A stretch of DNA of 64,000 bases from Escherichia phage BUCT632. Under the pieces are notes generated by a model. It saw only the letters and a program-made list of their open reading frames with translations, had not been told where the DNA came from and made no database searches. Position numbers and translations under genes: made by a program. Shown piece after piece: positions 5,417 to 29,499 of this stretch (position 1 is its first letter; every line of letters begins with the position of its first letter). Location of the stretch: the sequence record PQ488502.1. One strand, given 5' to 3'.

Positions 5417-7291
5417 TTATTTAGCTCGAATATCCTGATGTTTCACTCTGCCCATCACCTCGTGCTGTTTGCCGGGGTTAAATGGACGAGCACCCGGATT
5501 TCCAAGATACCCACAAACTCGACGAGTTACTTCAAGAGTTTCGGGGTCATGATTACCACAGATAGGGCACTTAAATCCATCTTCGGATGCTATTGTTTCA
5601 CCTAAGAATCCGCATTTACCGCAAGAATCCACTGGAGTATTAATACCGAAGTAATGAACTTTACTAGCAGCATAATTAATAACCCATTCCAGTGCATCTG
5701 GGAATCGTTTCATATCCGGTAGTTCTACATAGGAAATGCATCCACCAGAAGCAATCGGAGTAAAGTTAGATTCATAATCAAATTTCACATTAGGAGCAAC
5801 TTTACGTTCCACATCAAGGTGGTGAGAGTTAGTGTAGTATCCTTTGGACAGAATATCTTCATGCTCTGGGAAATATTCACGGTCTAGACGACAAAAACGG
5901 TCACATAGGGATTCTGATGGTGTAGCATACAGGCTATAACCTAATTTAGTTTCTTCCTTCTTCTGATCGACTCTATCCCGCATGTACTGCAATACACGCT
6001 GAACAAACTTGATGCAGGTCTCGGACATTGTGTCTACATCTTTGCCAAACATGAACTGTAGCATTTCATGGCAGCCAATATACCCTAGAGATACAGAAGC
6101 ACGGTTATAGAAATGATCGAATACATACTCATCAGGCCCCAAGCGTAACCCAAAGGCTCCTGACATATAGAGGATGGGTGCAGCTTTAGCTTGAATGTAT
6201 TTTAAGCGATCAACTCTCCACTCCAATGCTTTTAACGCTGTATCCACACGTAGCTCAAGCAAATCAAAGAATAGATCAATATTTCCTTCAGCTTCGATAG
6301 CAATTCTAGGCAAGTTTACAGAAACAACACCTAAGTTATTACGACCAGCAGTTTCACCATCTTCTGTAGCAGCTAGGAATGAACGACAGCCCATAGAAAC
6401 TTTGTAGTCTCCAGTAACTTCTACAACTTTGTCATAGCTGATATAATCGGGATACATACGTTCAGCAGTACATTTCATAGCTAACTTCTTGATGTCATAA
6501 TTAACATCTCCTGGCTTCATATTTACGCCATCACGAAGTACAAATACCAGTTTCGGGAAGATAGCTGTACGTTTATTGATACCTAAACCATCCATGCGTA
6601 CTTTCAGTATTGCTTTCTGTACTAGACGTGCTTCCCAAGAAGTTCCTAGACCAAAACCAAAGGTAATAAATGGACTCTGACCGTTAGAGTTGAACATGGT
6701 ATTGATTTCATATTCTAAACCCTGACAAGCGTCATAGACTTCCTTTTCAGTCATCTCCGTAGCCATTACGGATGCTTTGGCTTCATCCTTAGTCCAACGT
6801 TTTGCAAACGCATGATTTTTGTCATATGATTTACGAACATAAGGGGCTAATACTTCATCAAGGCGGTCTACAGAAGTACCACCATACTGATGGGAGCTAA
6901 CCTGAGTGATAATCTGAGCAGTAATAGCCGCCGCAGTAGTGATAGAGTTTGGAGTGCTAATTTCAGCATTACCAACCTTCATACCATTCTTCAACATATC
7001 TTCCAGGGCTACCAGACAACAGTTAGTCATGCCTAATGCAGCATAATCAGCATCATGGAAATGAATATCCCCAATCATATGAGCATTTCGAATCTGAATT
7101 GGCATTTCTTCTAGAATTAGATACTTACTCAATTCACCTGCAAGCATATCCCTTTGTGTAGGGAAACGTTCTGAGGGTTTATTGGCATTATTAAACAGCA
7201 GCTCTTCATCTGCTGACCCTTCGATAATCTCTTTGCAGTTTCTAATTAGCGCCTGCATTTCTTTATACTTTAGTTCTTCATTGCGATTCAT
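5417..7291 (-). CDS. nrdD: anaerobic ribonucleoside-triphosphate reductase (class III RNR)
   Basis: 624 aa; C-terminal Cys cluster CGKCG...CPICG and glycyl-radical motif RVCGYLG. Confidence 0.85.
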   Translation of the reverse strand: MNRNEELKYKEMQALIRNCKEIIEGSADEELLFNNANKPSERFPTQRDMLAGELSKYLILEEMPIQIRNAHMIGDIHFHDADYAALGMTNCCLVALEDMLKNGMKVGNAEISTPNSITTAAAITAQIITQVSSHQYGGTSVDRLDEVLAPYVRKSYDKNHAFAKRWTKDEAKASVMATEMTEKEVYDACQGLEYEINTMFNSNGQSPFITFGFGLGTSWEARLVQKAILKVRMDGLGINKRTAIFPKLVFVLRDGVNMKPGDVNYDIKKLAMKCTAERMYPDYISYDKVVEVTGDYKVSMGCRSFLAATEDGETAGRNNLGVVSVNLPRIAIEAEGNIDLFFDLLELRVDTALKALEWRVDRLKYIQAKAAPILYMSGAFGLRLGPDEYVFDHFYNRASVSLGYIGCHEMLQFMFGKDVDTMSETCIKFVQRVLQYMRDRVDQKKEETKLGYSLYATPSESLCDRFCRLDREYFPEHEDILSKGYYTNSHHLDVERKVAPNVKFDYESNFTPIASGGCISYVELPDMKRFPDALEWVINYAASKVHYFGINTPVDSCGKCGFLGETIASEDGFKCPICGNHDPETLEVTRRVCGYLGNPGARPFNPGKQHEVMGRVKHQDIRAK

Positions 7292-20289: not shown

Positions 20290-20361
20290 GCCGTCCTAGT
20301 ATAATTGGTATTATCAAGCCGTAACTGGTGGAAGATGTAGGTTCGAATCCTACGGTCGGTA
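20290..20361 (+). ncRNA. tRNA-like element (aberrant anticodon arm)
   Basis: perfect T arm GTAGG-TTCGAAT-CCTAC, D arm with AATTGGTA loop, acceptor with one mismatch; no canonical anticodon stem. Confidence 0.35.
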
Positions 20362-24573: not shown

Positions 24574-24648
24574 GGTTCTCAAGCTCATATGGTATGAGCA
24601 CCCGGCTCATAACCGGAAGGTACGTAGGTTCGAATCCTCGGGGAGCCA
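24574..24648 (+). tRNA. tRNA-Met(CAT), initiator-like
   Basis: anticodon loop CTCATAA; three G:C pairs next to loop; weak T stem; CCA encoded. Confidence 0.65.
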
Positions 24649-27417: not shown

Positions 27418-27522
27418 CCAAATTCTGTGTAGAGTTAAGTAAACCGGTAGCCAATCAGCTATCATTGCTGACATCGAATTCAGCCACAGATACCATTTTC
27501 ATTAATAACTGAGGAAACAAGC

Positions 27523-27820: not shown

Positions 27821-28168
27821 ATGATTAATGCTAAAGAAGAATTGTTACTTGCCCTAAAGAATACTAATTCTGAAGTTAAGTGTATTAAGATAGAATTCGG
27901 TTATTATGGGGACAAAGAAGTTTGGGTATTACCCGTAGGTTATACAGAAAAAGATATTGAAGATTTTCTAAATAATCTAGACTTTAAATATGATTCTGGT
28001 TTCGGTGGACAATTGCTTTATGGTAACGTATGGTTTACTGATGGAACTTGGTTAGAACGTGGTGAATATGATGGTTCTGAATGGTGGGAGTATAAGACTA
28101 CACCAGCAATCCCTGAGGAATGCCGAACAATTAATGGTGAGGTAGATAATACTTTACGGTTAAACTAA
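27821..28168 (+). CDS. hypothetical protein
   Basis: 115 aa ORF. Confidence 0.5.
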   Translation: MINAKEELLLALKNTNSEVKCIKIEFGYYGDKEVWVLPVGYTEKDIEDFLNNLDFKYDSGFGGQLLYGNVWFTDGTWLERGEYDGSEWWEYKTTPAIPEECRTINGEVDNTLRLN

Positions 28169-28290
28169 TAAAATTTCAGTGCAGAACACGGAGCTAGCAA
28201 TTCGGAAGTGCTGACTCATGATAAGCTGCCTATGTACTTGCGAAGCGGTCGTGTCCAAGACTCGGACTCTTGCACTGAAAACAATCAAAC

Positions 28291-28411
28291 ATTCTAGCGT
28301 GGTTGATGGGGAAACCAGCTTGGCGAGGGCAGAAGCTCGTTCGATTCGAGTGAAAGAATGGTTCTCGTAAGTCCGCACAAGTGATAACAGGTTCGAGTCC
28401 TGTCTAGAATG
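28291..28411 (+). ncRNA. oversized tRNA-like RNA (~121 nt) with two T-arm-like hairpins
   Basis: complementary acceptor strands ATTCTAG/CTAGAAT, D arm TGGT-TGATGGGGAA-ACCA, hairpins CTCG-TTCGATT-CGAG and ACAGG-TTCGAGT-CCTGT; too long for a canonical tRNA. Confidence 0.35.
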
Positions 28412-28559
28412 ACACTATAAAGTTTACTTATTATGTAGGTTCCGGTAGATCGGCGGGTCTATTCTGGCATTTAAGAGGGGTCTCGCAAACTTCTTTGTCA
28501 GCCGTGGGGTTGGTAGCCTCCAGGCGGCCTACACAATAAGTAAATTTATTAAAAATTCA

Positions 28560-28588
28560 TTTGCTATTCTGCTTAATTCTCTGTATAA
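28560..28588 (+). promoter_or_regulatory. T5-type early promoter cassette
   Basis: AAAAATTCATTTGCTA..17..TATAAT. Confidence 0.6.
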
Positions 28589-28621
28589 TATATTTTATAA
28601 AGTGAAGAGAAGGAAAGCAAA

Positions 28622-28780
28622 ATGAAACACAAGATAGCTCAAGTTTTTATGGCATTATGGTGTATGCCAATAGCTGTAACAGCTTTTAATCTAGATACTT
28701 TTACTATAGAAGAAAAATGTATCGGATTAGTTAGCGGCTTTAGTATGCTTGGCTTATCTTTGTTGTGGTTGAAGAAATAA
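28622..28780 (+). CDS. hypothetical small membrane protein
   Basis: 52 aa hydrophobic ORF after GAAGGAAAG RBS. Confidence 0.35.
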   Translation: MKHKIAQVFMALWCMPIAVTAFNLDTFTIEEKCIGLVSGFSMLGLSLLWLKK

Positions 28781-29210: not shown

Positions 29211-29232
29211 ACCAATTTCAAGAAAAACGCAG

Positions 29233-29261
29233 TTGCTTGATGCTTAATTTCTTGTTATAAT
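29233..29261 (+). promoter_or_regulatory. T5-type early promoter cassette without ORF
   Basis: TTGCTT-17-TATAAT; cassette RBS GAGGAG lies in hairpin GATGAGGA-GAAA-TCCTCATC and no ATG follows. Confidence 0.55.
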
Positions 29262-29284
29262 ATTTATATAAATTGATGAGGAGA

Positions 29285-29499
29285 AATCCTCATCATAGTT
29301 CACTAAGGTATTAGCTCGACCTAGGACTGGCTGCCAAAAAGCACGATCCCCATGATTCGGGAGAAGTTCTAGATTGGTCCACTAGATTCAGCGGCAACTG
29401 AATAGTGTATTGGGTTTGCGAGATGACGCAGTTCCTTCCGCTCGAAGCGAAGGTGCTGTAGTTACGCCGAGCTAATAGCCTTAGTAAACTAAAGAATTT
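29285..29499 (+). ncRNA. putative structured leader/noncoding RNA upstream of tRNA-Ala
   Basis: ~215 nt promoter-proximal, no plus-strand ORF, several hairpins (e.g. TTCAGCGGCAACTGAA, CCTTCCGCTCGAAGCGAAGG). Confidence 0.3.

What the first reader, a model, noticed from the sequence alone, without database searches (positions are those of the whole stretch)
28160..28545. Promoter-proximal noncoding RNA cluster with an oversized tRNA-like molecule carrying two T-arm hairpins
Between a protein gene and the next promoter lie ~380 nt with no credible ORF. 28291-28411 has complementary acceptor-like ends (ATTCTAG/CTAGAAT), a canonical D arm and two TTCGA(T/G)T hairpins, but at ~121 nt it is too long for a tRNA. 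Flanking segments have long-range inverted repeats (CAGTGCA...TGCACTG at 28166-28283; GTAGG...CCTAC at 28432-28526). T5-family phages are reported (from memory, unverified) to make stable small RNAs in the tRNA region; these would be candidates.
Basis: partly seen in the sequence, partly recalled or inferred. Interest (0 to 1): 0.65.

Follow-up and report, generated by a model that had tools for sequence, protein, structure and literature searches.

The report
Phage T5 stable RNAs RNA2, RNAIV
The flagged stretch holds two small stable RNAs already annotated in phage T5, with no known function, and one of them turns out to belong to a widespread phage family of transfer-RNA look-alikes whose anticodon loop is replaced by a conserved folded module.

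Summary
The window is a T5-like phage. Region 28160-28545 is 97% identical to phage T5, whose GenBank record (and BF23's) annotates RNA2 ('tRNA-like stable RNA with unknown functions', = 28290-28414), RNAIV ('stable RNA', = 28433-28535) and promoter P13a (= 28542-28616).

What I add:
- RNA2 is not confined to T5. Homologues occur across Demerecviridae, in T4-like Acinetobacter phages and in uncultivated phage contigs of up to about 360 kb, nearly always inside tRNA arrays.
- In 46 distinct sequences, six helices covary strongly: 92.8% of cells are paired against 59.5% in shuffles. These are the acceptor stem, D stem, a 5-bp 'anticodon' stem, two T arms and a mini-hairpin presenting UGG.
- The anticodon loop is replaced by a roughly 55-nt module with near-invariant GGGY, CGUAA and RUCC-GCA.
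- Rfam 15 has no family for it. Rfam's tRNA model scores one homologue as a tRNA with a 51-nt insertion.
- RNAIV is a covarying four-way junction closed by a 20-nt inverted repeat.
- The upstream 28171-28289 element is conserved but cannot be tested.

Function remains unknown. My best inference is a non-decoding tRNA mimic.

The parts
28171..28289 (+). Segment 1: a conserved, unannotated element between the stop codon of the T5.067 homologue and RNA2. It is closed by a perfect 10-bp stem (28174-28183 with 28271-28280).
   Evidence: Inverted repeat I2. Present in 219 phage records, all at least 90% identical. Conservation starts sharply at AAATTTCAG, while the upstream flanks differ completely between phages. 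No compensatory changes are available. Not annotated in T5 or BF23.
28290..28414 (+). RNA2: a tRNA-like stable RNA, with coordinates transferred from the T5 annotation. The cloverleaf proper is 28291-28410.
   Evidence: T5 rna2 and BF23 rna2 annotations. 96.8% identity to T5. Scores 156 bits with covariance model R1 and 127 bits with R2.
28291..28297 (+). RNA2 acceptor stem, 5' strand ATTCTAG. It pairs with 28404-28410 (CTAGAAT). C28290-G28411 could add an eighth pair.
   Evidence: All 7 pairs show changes on both sides across 46 sequences (helix 1).
28301..28316 (+). RNA2 D arm: stem GGTT/AACC and loop GATGGGGA, which contains GG.
   Evidence: All 4 pairs covary; 95.3% of cells are paired (helix 2).
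28318..28322 (+). RNA2 'anticodon' stem, 5' strand GCTTG. It pairs with CAAGT at 28378-28382.
   Evidence: All 5 pairs covary; 95.6% of cells are paired (helix 3). Rfam's tRNA model aligns this helix as the anticodon stem in homologue L255.
28323..28377 (+). Module that replaces the anticodon loop. In order: J1 GCGA; GGGC (28327-28330); AGAAG; T-loop hairpin 1 (28336-28350); UGAAA; UGG mini-hairpin GAA-UGG-UUC (28356-28364); U; CGUAA (28366-28370); GUCC (28371-28374); GCA (28375-28377).
   Evidence: GGG, G-N-T, CGTAA, TCCGCA and the T-loop are invariant in a set found without constraining them all. T-hairpin 1 has 3 of 4 pairs covarying (98.9% paired) and the UGG hairpin 3 of 3 (93.7% paired). 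GGGY/RUCC shows only one informative pair: UA 22, CG 6, other 18 (helix 4).
28387..28403 (+). RNA2 T arm 2, in the canonical T-arm position: ACAGG-TTCGAGT-CCTGT.
   Evidence: 4 of 5 pairs covary; 95.6% of cells are paired (helix 7).
28420..28547 (+). RNAIV with its extended closing stem. The mature RNA by T5 annotation is 28433-28535. The structure is a four-way junction: P1 (28435-28443 with 28523-28532), hairpin A (28444-28463), hairpin B (28464-28501) and variable hairpin C (28506-28520).
   Evidence: T5 and BF23 rnaIV annotations. A 20-nt inverted repeat. RNAalifold on 12 variants gives 45 pairs, 9 of them with compensatory changes. Present in 405 phage records at 72-99% identity; every record I examined is a T5-like phage.
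28561..28589 (+). Sigma-70-type promoter TTGCTA-17-TATAAT (T5 promoter P13a). It drives the downstream small membrane-protein ORF and tRNA-Pro and tRNA-Met. It is not part of the RNAs but marks the 3' boundary of the cluster.
   Evidence: Promoter scan, 10 of 12 matches. T5 and BF23 annotate 'promoter P13a' at the homologous position.

Best explanation
SHOWN:
- The region encodes the T5-type stable RNAs RNA2 (28290-28414) and RNAIV (28433-28535), preceded by a third conserved element (28171-28289).
- RNA2 has a genuine tRNA scaffold: a 7-bp acceptor stem, a D arm with GG, a 5-bp anticodon-type stem, a short variable loop and a T arm.
- Its 7-nt anticodon loop is replaced by a conserved module of about 55 nt. 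The module contains a second T-loop hairpin, a 3-bp mini-hairpin presenting UGG, and the near-invariant strands GGGY, CGUAA and RUCC-GCA.
- RNA2 belongs to a family found in Demerecviridae, in some T4-like Acinetobacter phages and in many uncultivated phage contigs. Members sit head-to-tail in tRNA arrays.
- RNAIV is a four-way-junction RNA closed by a 20-nt inverted repeat. I found it only in T5-like phages.

INFERRED:
- These RNAs are co-transcribed with the neighbouring tRNAs. RNA2 is excised by the tRNA-maturation enzymes (RNase P at its 5' end, then 3' trimming and CCA addition).
- RNAIV, and perhaps segment 1, are released by cleavage in their long closing stems, most likely by RNase III.
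- RNA2 cannot decode, because it has no anticodon loop. It most likely acts as a tRNA mimic. Its module may form a second, acceptor-less 'elbow' (T-loop docking on the GG loop) at the end of the anticodon stem. That would present a tRNA-like surface to a broadly conserved tRNA-binding partner, whether a processing or modification enzyme, the ribosome, or a tRNA-directed defence nuclease.
- The partner and the benefit to the phage are unknown.
For: Identity:
- 97.4% identity to T5 over the whole region, with rna2, rnaIV and promoter P13a annotated under the match.
- BF23 carries the same annotations.

tRNA scaffold:
- With models R1 and R2, ordinary tRNAs match end to end with the module deleted, scoring at most 30 bits (R1) and at most 43.6 bits (R2). 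True members score 38-156 bits (R1) and 53-128 bits (R2).
- Rfam's RF00005 scores homologue L255 at 50.6 bits (gathering score 29) as a tRNA with a 51-nt insertion after C32-U33.

Structure:
- In 46 distinct sequences, 92.8% of cells are paired, against 59.5% in shuffles and at most 48% with slid partners.
- The covariation score is 0.79 against 0.17 in shuffles, and 27 of 32 pairs change on both sides (the earlier set is).
- For the UGG-hairpin flanks, 80% and 64% are paired against 39% and 38% in shuffles, with 0 of 2000 shuffles reaching the observed values.

Family breadth:
- Phage 133, between tRNA-Gly and tRNA-Cys.
- My1, AAS21, Sugarlandvirus and Henu6.
- IMG/VR contigs of 51-363 kb.
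- Providencia and Proteus phages.
- Only 1 real hit among 185,579 species' genomes, itself on a 167-kb phage-like contig.

Context and ends:
- 31 of 40 loci carry tRNAs, and members often lie 4-10 nt from a neighbouring tRNA on the same strand.
- N-CCA (or CCA in the adjacent register) follows the acceptor stem in 7 of 46 members, against roughly 1.4 expected by chance for the two registers.

RNAIV:
- 9 compensatory pairs and a 20-nt closing inverted repeat.
Against: - No expression, processing or binding data were generated here. 'Stable RNA' rests on the depositors' annotation.
- Single-sequence folds are not more stable than shuffles.
- Within the module, the GGGY/RUCC helix is mostly invariant and so untestable. 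Its one variable pair is unpaired in 18 of 46 sequences.
- An alternative invariant pairing, UGG with CCG, cannot be excluded, and it is improved in the Acinetobacter phages.
- The T-loop/GG 'second elbow' contact involves invariant bases only and is pure inference.
- The acceptor stems carry no conserved identity element, so no aminoacyl-tRNA synthetase can be proposed.
- No protein gene is consistently adjacent.
- The alignments were fitted to the model, which inflates the paired percentages somewhat.
- The two collection patterns required parts of the module, so conservation of those parts is partly by construction.
Confidence: 0.6

Rival explanations
1. The elements act in cis as processing and punctuation signals. 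The tRNA-like fold of RNA2 recruits RNase P, and the long stems of RNAIV and segment 1 recruit RNase III. These cleavages separate the upstream mRNA (T5.067 homologue) from the tRNA transcripts and define transcript ends. The stable RNAs are by-products.
For: - The position between a protein gene and the next promoter and tRNAs.
- Closing duplexes of 10 to 20 nt flank segment 1 and RNAIV.
- RNAIV and segment 1 were found only in T5-like phages.
- tRNA-like punctuation of transcripts is an established principle (general knowledge).
Against: - A mere RNase P handle would not need a near-invariant 55-nt module kept across unrelated phage families.
- In many phages RNA2 relatives sit between tRNAs that already provide RNase P sites.
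- The internal hairpins of RNAIV covary, which is more than an RNase III stem requires.
Confidence: 0.17
2. RNA2 is a tRNA gene with an unusual short intron in the anticodon loop. The module is excised to yield a normal decoding tRNA.
For: - Rfam's tRNA model treats homologue L255 as a tRNA with a 51-nt insertion placed after C32-U33, the usual region for tRNA introns.
- The scaffold covaries like a functional tRNA.
Against: - Removing the module leaves J1 + GCA (for example GCGA+GCA, CUA+GCA, GCUUA+GCA). That remnant is 6-8 nt, has no conserved U33 and no consistent anticodon.
- At about 55 nt the module is far shorter than the group I introns known in bacterial tRNA genes (general knowledge), and Rfam reports no intron or ribozyme family at E<=10.
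- The T5 and BF23 records annotate the full 125 nt as the stable RNA.
- The module sequence is more conserved than the tRNA scaffold around it.
Confidence: 0.06
3. RNA2 is charged and enters the ribosome without a codon, acting as a minimal tmRNA-like or A-site-directed tRNA mimic that affects ribosome rescue or host translation.
For: - A complete acceptor/T-arm half, with CCA encoded in several lineages.
- The anticodon is replaced by a structured module, as in tmRNA, where SmpB and the pseudoknots replace the anticodon arm (general knowledge).
- A superficial resemblance of CGAGGG...CUCGUAAGUCCGCA to E. coli tmRNA pseudoknot 1 (from memory).
Against: - G3-U70 is absent: GU occurs in 1 of 46 sequences at pair 3.
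- ARAGORN and Rfam find no tmRNA.
- The pseudoknot-1-like helix CGAG/CUCG has no covariation support: 69.7% paired against 70.2% in shuffles.
- The 8-codon ORF (AUG GUU ... UGA UAA) is not kept in phage 133.
- No conserved acceptor identity.
Confidence: 0.08
4. RNA2 is a non-functional relic, a fused or duplicated tRNA remnant that persists and accumulates only because tRNA-like RNAs are stable.
For: - The layout acceptor-D-stem-...-T1 | D-like-...-stem-T2-acceptor looks like two tRNA copies fused with the internal acceptor strands lost (my reading).
- The T5 tRNA region is reported to tolerate deletions (from memory, not checked here).
Against: - Compensatory changes maintain six helices, and 12 or more module positions are invariant, across phages whose flanking genes and acceptor stems are unrelated.
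- The family is kept in hundreds of genomes.
Confidence: 0.06
5. The region encodes a small protein; some GenBank records annotate hypothetical proteins here.
For: - ORFs of 50-72 aa exist on both strands.
- Several phage records place 'hypothetical protein' features under the match.
Against: - The longest open stretch (82 codons, minus strand) is halved in T5, which is 97% identical.
- One-nucleotide indels distinguish close relatives.
- The substitutions are compensatory in RNA helices.
- The curated T5 and BF23 records annotate RNAs, not coding sequences.
Confidence: 0.01

Closest known systems
Phage T5 / BF23 RNA2 (misc_RNA rna2 in AY543070 and AJ604530)
   Same: It is the same gene: 96.8% identity over 125 nt, with the same neighbours (T5.067 homologue upstream; RNAIV and promoter P13a downstream).
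   Different: Only a few point differences. The records give no structure, family or function beyond 'tRNA-like stable RNA with unknown functions'.
Phage T5 / BF23 RNAIV (misc_RNA rnaIV)
   Same: It is the same gene: 95.9% identity and the same position directly upstream of P13a.
   Different: None of substance. In BF23 and Epseptimavirus, a tRNA-Gly and extra spacer separate it from RNA2.
Canonical elongator tRNA (Rfam RF00005)
   Same: Acceptor, D, anticodon-type and T stems at tRNA spacing, GG in the D loop, a TTCGA T loop, location in tRNA arrays, and sometimes an encoded CCA.
   Different: There is no 7-nt anticodon loop and no anticodon. A roughly 55-nt conserved module sits in its place. 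The window copy is missed by ARAGORN and by RF00005 even at E<=10.
Phage T4 species 1 and species 2 RNAs (rnaC, rnaD)
   Same: They are small stable RNAs of unknown function encoded at the end of a phage tRNA cluster. rnaC ends with a T arm.
   Different: There is no detectable homology: model R1 gives no hit on rnaC or rnaD at E<=1. The RNA2-type module is absent. Other T4-like phages (Acinetobacter 133, Henu6) do carry true RNA2 relatives.
tmRNA tRNA-like domain
   Same: An acceptor/T-arm half of a tRNA joined through a helix to structured RNA that replaces the anticodon arm.
   Different: No G3-U70, no tag reading frame, no supported pseudoknot, and about 125 nt rather than about 360 nt. 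Not detected by ARAGORN or Rfam.
Bacterial Y RNA YrlA (tRNA-like module) and eukaryotic tRNA mimics such as mascRNA or plant-virus TLS
   Same: They are non-decoding RNAs that imitate the tRNA elbow and acceptor and are handled by tRNA enzymes (general knowledge).
   Different: In YrlA the RNA ends lie at the end of the Ro-binding stem, not at the acceptor stem (from memory). Rfam gave no hit to any family, YrlA included, above chance. RNA2 keeps a complete cloverleaf scaffold and adds a second T-loop unit.

Membership tests
T5-type RNA2 | Sequence identity to the annotated rna2 of T5 and BF23 | tested here: met
   96.8% identity over 125 nt to AY543070 and AJ604530, both with the rna2 feature under the match.
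T5-type RNA2 | Synteny: downstream of the T5.067 homologue and upstream of RNAIV and promoter P13a | tested here: met
   Feature tables of T5 and BF23 mapped on to the window. The ORF at 27821-28168 and the promoter at 28561-28589 are present.
T5-type RNA2 | Accumulates as a stable RNA of about 125 nt in infected cells | not testable with these tools
   This rests on the depositors' annotation alone. No paper on it was found in the searchable library.
T5-type RNAIV | Sequence identity and position relative to the annotated rnaIV | tested here: met
   95.9% identity to T5 with rnaIV under the match. Maps to 28433-28535.
Canonical tRNA | 7-bp acceptor stem, D arm, 5-bp anticodon stem and T arm maintained by covariation | tested here: met
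   Helices 1, 2, 3 and 7 have 7/7, 4/4, 5/5 and 4/5 pairs with changes on both sides.
Canonical tRNA | 7-nt anticodon loop with U33 and an anticodon | tested here: not met
   55 nt lie between the two strands of the anticodon-type stem (28323-27377 should be read as 28323-28377). The flanking nucleotides (J1 and GCA) give no consistent loop.
Canonical tRNA | Detected by ARAGORN, or reaches the gathering score of Rfam RF00005 | tested here: not met
   The window copy gives no call and no hit even at E<=10. Homologue L255 does reach 50.6 bits, and L273 reaches 27.3 bits.
Canonical tRNA | Aminoacylation | not testable with these tools
   CCA is encoded in 7 of 46 members. No conserved acceptor identity pair was found.
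tmRNA | G3-U70 alanine identity pair in the acceptor stem | tested here: not met
   At pair 3, GU occurs in 1 of 46 sequences.
tmRNA | Tag reading frame with a resume codon and a stop codon | tested here: not met
   ARAGORN finds no tmRNA. The 8-codon frame in the window is disrupted by an indel in phage 133.
tmRNA | Pseudoknot next to the tRNA-like domain | tested here: not met
   The candidate helix CGAGGGC/GUUCUCG is 69.7% paired against 70.2% in shuffles, with covariation 0.099 against 0.101.
Intron-containing tRNA gene | Removing the insertion restores a canonical anticodon loop; group I or bulge-helix-bulge signals are present | tested here: not met
   The remnant loops are 6-8 nt without U33 or a common anticodon. 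No intron family is hit in Rfam. Bulge-helix-bulge geometry was not specifically modelled.
T4 rnaC / rnaD | Homology to T4 species 1 or species 2 RNA | tested here: not met
   Model R1 has no hit on T4 rnaC or rnaD (L129 1409-1672) at E<=1. The sequences were also inspected directly.
Rfam families in general (including YrlA, T-box, ribozymes) | A match to any of the 4227 covariance models | tested here: not met
   Only three hits at E = 2.3-8.5 in 28100-28650. Twelve other loci that hold family members gave nothing but tRNA-model hits over the element.

The most novel reading that the evidence does not exclude
RNA2 is the founding, long-overlooked member of a phage-wide class of non-decoding 'two-elbow' tRNA mimics. 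In this class a full tRNA scaffold has its anticodon loop replaced by a conserved three-way-junction unit (T-loop hairpin, UGG hairpin and CGUAA/RUCC-GCA core).

The unit is portable: a second class carries it next to the 3' T arm. It targets a universally conserved bacterial tRNA-handling machine or a tRNA-directed defence system.

The class has no Rfam family, and I found no description of it in the searchable literature.
Probability: 0.3. Interest if true: 0.75.

Novelty: already known. Interest (0 to 1): 0.45.

Why it matters
In itself the finding rediscovers two annotated T5 RNAs, so it adds nothing to the inventory. What matters is that these RNAs are still annotated 'unknown functions'.

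The comparative data now give RNA2 three things it lacked:
- A covariation-backed structure.
- A clear definition: a tRNA scaffold plus an anticodon-replacing module.
- A distribution well beyond T5, reaching T4-like and very large uncultivated phages, almost always inside tRNA arrays and essentially absent from bacterial genomes.

That turns an old curiosity into a testable problem. An RNA kept this carefully by unrelated phages of different hosts probably engages something common to bacteria. Possible partners include tRNA-processing or tRNA-modifying enzymes, the ribosome, or the tRNA-cleaving defence systems that phage tRNAs are already known to counter. It also flags a systematic annotation gap, since in the records listed only T5 and BF23 label it.

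Tried and rejected
1. Minimum-free-energy helix CGAGGGC/GUUCUCG, which resembles tmRNA pseudoknot 1. It has no covariation support. Rejected.

2. Anticodon-like hairpin UGGUU-CUCGUAA-RUCCG, which would give an anticodon CGU.
 - The UGG/CCG part is invariant and therefore uninformative. The inner pairs are only 36% paired.
 - The base at the U33 position varies.
 - Rejected as the main fold, but kept as a possible alternative conformer.

3. Eight-codon ORF AUG...UGA UAA in the module, as a tmRNA-like tag. It is not conserved in phage 133.

4. Homology to T4 rnaC or rnaD. No hit with model R1.

5. A 14-nt collection pattern (TGAAAGAATGGTTC). Almost all hits were chance matches, so I replaced it with longer, gapped patterns.

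6. MAFFT alignment of divergent members. It misaligned the 5' half and T-hairpin 1, so I used model-based alignments instead.

7. Linkage to the upstream protein T5.067 or the downstream T5.066. Homologues occur only in T5-like loci.

8. Paralogues of the three elements elsewhere in the window. None found.

9. Literature on T5 RNA2/RNAIV or on such a family. Nothing relevant turned up in seven searches and three papers read. The older T5 literature is not in the library.

10. Folding of the second-class RNAs. The minimum-free-energy structure pairs the two palindromic T-loop sequences with each other, which is probably an artefact.

11. Covariation test of segment 1. Impossible, because only about 7% divergence is available and there are no compensatory changes.
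Full report
**What the window is**

ARAGORN finds 22 tRNA genes on the plus strand between 20.8 and 32.8 kb, none of them between 27794 and 28785. Rfam gathering thresholds give the same picture. The flagged interval is 99.7% identical to Escherichia phage Stokescottia and 97.4% identical to phage T5. The window is therefore the tRNA region of a T5-like phage.

**Check of the observation**

- CATTCTAG (28290-28297) pairs perfectly with CTAGAATG (28404-28411).
- T-loop hairpins CTCG-TTCGATT-CGAG (28336-28350) and ACAGG-TTCGAGT-CCTGT (28387-28403).
- D arm GGTT-GATGGGGA-AACC (28301-28316).
- A perfect 10-nt inverted repeat, 28174-28183 with 28271-28280.

The surroundings also fit. The upstream ORF ends at 28168, and a strong sigma-70-type promoter, TTGCTA-17-TATAAT, lies at 28561-28589. 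Rfam at E<=10 finds nothing but three chance-level hits.

Single-sequence folding energies are not unusual (z = -1.3 to -1.8). Thermodynamics alone would not have singled the region out.

There is no conserved ORF. The longest open stretch, 82 codons on the minus strand, shrinks to 42 codons in T5. Close relatives differ by one-nucleotide indels.

**What it is**

The curated T5 record AY543070 annotates three features at the homologous positions. BF23 (AJ604530) carries the same features.

| T5 annotation | Length | Window coordinates |
|---|---|---|
| misc_RNA rna2, 'tRNA-like stable RNA with unknown functions' | 125 nt | 28290-28414 |
| misc_RNA rnaIV, 'stable RNA with unknown functions' | 103 nt | 28433-28535 |
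| promoter P13a | 75 nt | 28542-28616 |

Segment 28171-28289 is not annotated in either record. Of the other phage records listed as carrying RNA2, none labels it: they show nothing or a 'hypothetical protein' there.

**RNA2 beyond T5**

blastn with RNA2 alone finds 484 phage records. Besides Tequintavirus and Epseptimavirus, these include:
- Pectobacterium phage My1.
- Pantoea phage AAS21.
- Klebsiella Sugarlandvirus.
- The T4-like Acinetobacter phages 133 and Henu6.

In phage 133 the relative exactly fills the unannotated gap between tRNA-Gly and tRNA-Cys.

Two pattern scans of IMG/VR and one of metagenomes added many divergent members. They come from contigs of 14 kb to 363 kb. Some match cultured Providencia and Proteus phages.

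The same pattern run over one genome from each of 185,579 bacterial and archaeal species gave 12 matches. Only one is real by covariance model, and it lies on a 167-kb phage-like contig carrying 14 tRNAs. Within the reach of these patterns, the family looks phage-restricted.

In 31 of 40 loci the element lies among tRNA genes on the same strand. It is often 4-10 nt from its neighbours.

**Structure of RNA2**

I built a covariance model (R1) from six T5-like sequences and my proposed structure. It retrieved divergent members at 38-156 bits. It also matched ordinary tRNAs end to end at 30 bits or less, with the central module deleted.

A second model (R2) was built from 40 members. It separates members (53-128 bits) from tRNAs (43.6 bits or less).

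On the resulting alignment of 46 distinct sequences (the earlier 40-sequence set is):

| Measure | Observed | Shuffled | Slid partners |
|---|---|---|---|
| Cells forming a standard pair | 92.8% | 59.5% | at most 48% |
| Covariation score | 0.79 | 0.17 | at most 0.14 |

In total, 27 of 32 pairs show changes on both sides. By helix:

| Helix | Pairs with changes on both sides |
|---|---|
| Acceptor stem | 7 of 7 |
| D stem | 4 of 4 |
| Anticodon-type stem (GCUUG/CAAGU in the window) | 5 of 5 |
| T-hairpin 1 | 3 of 4 |
| T arm 2 | 4 of 5 |
| 3-bp hairpin closing a UGG triloop | 3 of 3 |

I tested the UGG hairpin independently in Python. Its flanks are 80% and 64% paired, against 39% and 38% in shuffles, and 0 of 2000 shuffles reach the observed values.

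Rfam's own tRNA model scores homologue L255 at 50.6 bits (gathering score 29). It treats it as a tRNA with a 51-nt insertion after C32-U33.

RNA2 is therefore a true tRNA scaffold in which the anticodon loop is replaced by a module of about 55 nt. In the window the module reads as follows:

J1 (GCGA) – GGGC – AGAAG – T-hairpin 1 – UGAAA – GAA[UGG]UUC – U – CGUAA – GUCC – GCA

GGG, the T loop, GG, CGUAA and UCC-GCA are nearly invariant.

**What is not settled inside the module**

- **GGGY/RUCC helix.** It is mostly invariant. Its one variable pair reads UA 22, CG 6 and unpaired 18. C is always matched with G, which supports the helix only weakly.
- **Alternative pairing UGG:CCG.** It is equally invariant. 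It becomes UGG:CCA in the Acinetobacter phages, where GGGY is degraded.
- **Natural variants that favour GGGY/RUCC.** L176 lacks T-hairpin 1 and the UGG hairpin but keeps GGGU...CGUAAUUCC-GCA. A second architectural class carries T-hairpin + UGG hairpin + CGUAA without any CCG partner. Together these suggest that UGG has another role.
- **The 'second elbow'.** The idea that the UGG loop docks on T-loop 1, as D-loop G18-G19 docks on the T loop in tRNA, is an inference from invariant bases. It cannot be tested by covariation.

The minimum-free-energy helix CGAGGGC/GUUCUCG is refuted: 69.7% paired against 70.2% in shuffles.

**Ends of RNA2**

N-CCA (or CCA in the adjacent register) follows the acceptor stem in 7 of 46 members, against roughly 1.4 expected by chance for the two registers. 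The window has G-ACA at that position. Acceptor sequences vary freely and carry no G3-U70.

**RNAIV**

RNAIV occurs in 405 phage records at 72-99% identity, and every record I examined is a T5-like phage. RNAalifold on 12 variants gives the following structure:
- An invariant 9-bp outer stem.
- P1, plus three hairpins that form a four-way junction.
- 9 pairs with compensatory changes, mainly from the STWB21/SuperGirl lineage, plus a variable third hairpin.

The ends annotated in T5 fall inside the 20-nt closing duplex, nearly opposite each other. That is what cleavage of a long duplex by RNase III would leave. This step is inferred.

**Segment 1 (28171-28289)**

It is present in 219 records, all at least 90% identical. 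Conservation begins abruptly at AAATTTCAG, whatever lies upstream. Most Epseptimavirus relatives have RNA2 without it, so RNA2 does not need it. With no compensatory changes available, I can only say it is a discrete conserved element closed by a 10-bp stem. It could be a third RNA or a processing site.

**How it most likely works**

Shown:
- Identity with T5 RNA2 and RNAIV.
- The folds.
- The family distribution.
- The tRNA-array context.

Inferred:
- Co-transcription with the tRNAs.
- Excision of RNA2 by RNase P and 3' trimming with CCA addition.
- Release of RNAIV by cleavage of its closing stem.
- A trans-acting role for RNA2 as a non-decoding tRNA mimic, whose module offers a second tRNA-like surface to a partner common to many bacteria.

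I put about 0.97 on the identity, about 0.9 on the scaffold-plus-module architecture and about 0.35 on the mimic mechanism.

The rivals are a cis processing signal, an intron-containing tRNA, a ribosome-directed mini-tmRNA-like RNA, a relic and a small ORF. Each is listed with its evidence. The intron, tmRNA and ORF readings each fail a direct test.

**Comparison with known systems, and novelty**

The window's RNAs are the known T5 genes, so I rate the finding 'already known'.

RNA2 works like a tRNA mimic. It is not a canonical tRNA, because it has no anticodon loop and the detectors do not call it. It is not tmRNA, and no Rfam match links it to YrlA or any other family. It is not homologous to T4 rnaC or rnaD.

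Rfam 15 has no family for it. I found no description of the family in the searchable literature. The older T5 papers are not in that library, so I cannot claim priority.

The most novel reading still open is that this is an undescribed, phage-wide class of 'two-elbow' tRNA mimics with a conserved host target.

Noticed in passing
window 27424-27496: By coordinate transfer, this should be the counterpart of T5 'rna3' ('putative tRNA-like RNA', directly after tRNA-Asn). Neither ARAGORN nor Rfam calls it a tRNA.
   Followed up: no
window 29215-29499: The gap between tRNA-Lys and tRNA-Ala holds a second promoter-like TTGCTT...TATAAT and the counterpart of T5 'rna2H', a 172-nt stable RNA of unknown function. 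T5's tRNA-Val is missing here. Model R1 gave no hit, so rna2H is not an RNA2 relative.
   Followed up: partly
window 24574-24648 and 20290-20361: Rfam's tRNA model hits these two sites above the gathering score (40.3 and 35.5 bits), but ARAGORN does not call them.
   Followed up: no
L192 5635-5746; L196 2992-3089; L200 about 5893-6005; also L244, L277, L281, L316: A second architectural class: tRNA-like RNAs carrying the same unit (T-loop hairpin + UGG hairpin such as ACGCA-UGGU-UGCGU + CGUAA) placed just before the 3' T arm instead of inside the anticodon loop. ARAGORN does not call them, and they score 35-39 bits with R2. This suggests the unit is portable.
   Followed up: partly
L176 1051-1153: A family member in which T-hairpin 1 and the UGG hairpin are replaced by a plain hairpin (GAAGTA-GT-TACTTC), while GGGU...CGUAAUUCC-GCA is kept. 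It is a natural minimal variant of the module.
   Followed up: partly
L161 7915-8084: A family member with an extra insertion of about 45 nt after T-hairpin 1, 170 nt in total.
   Followed up: no
L002 1050-1245; L132, L135 and L153 downstream of RNA2; L138 5875-5998: The spacer between RNA2 and RNAIV is a hot spot for rearrangement. Epseptimavirus and BF23 have a tRNA-Gly plus about 110 nt of unannotated sequence there. Some Tequintavirus relatives have different sequence directly after RNA2, starting ...GACATATTCTGGAGG..., which is possibly an inserted gene. One phage has lost RNAIV through tRNA-Pro, leaving RNA2 fused to ...ACCAAACAATTGCGGGT.
   Followed up: partly
L053 8968-9097 and 9119-9232; L161 9903-10039; L170 8235-8336: Weak R1 hits (E = 0.01-0.5) of unusual length (102-137 nt) near RNA2 relatives. 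They may be other oversized tRNA-like RNAs or long-arm tRNAs.
   Followed up: no
window 28359-28361 with 28373-28375: An invariant potential pairing, UGG:CCG, competes with GGGC:GUCC for the same two cytosines. It is strengthened to UGG:CCA in Acinetobacter phages, where GGGY is degraded. It may be an alternative conformer.
   Followed up: partly
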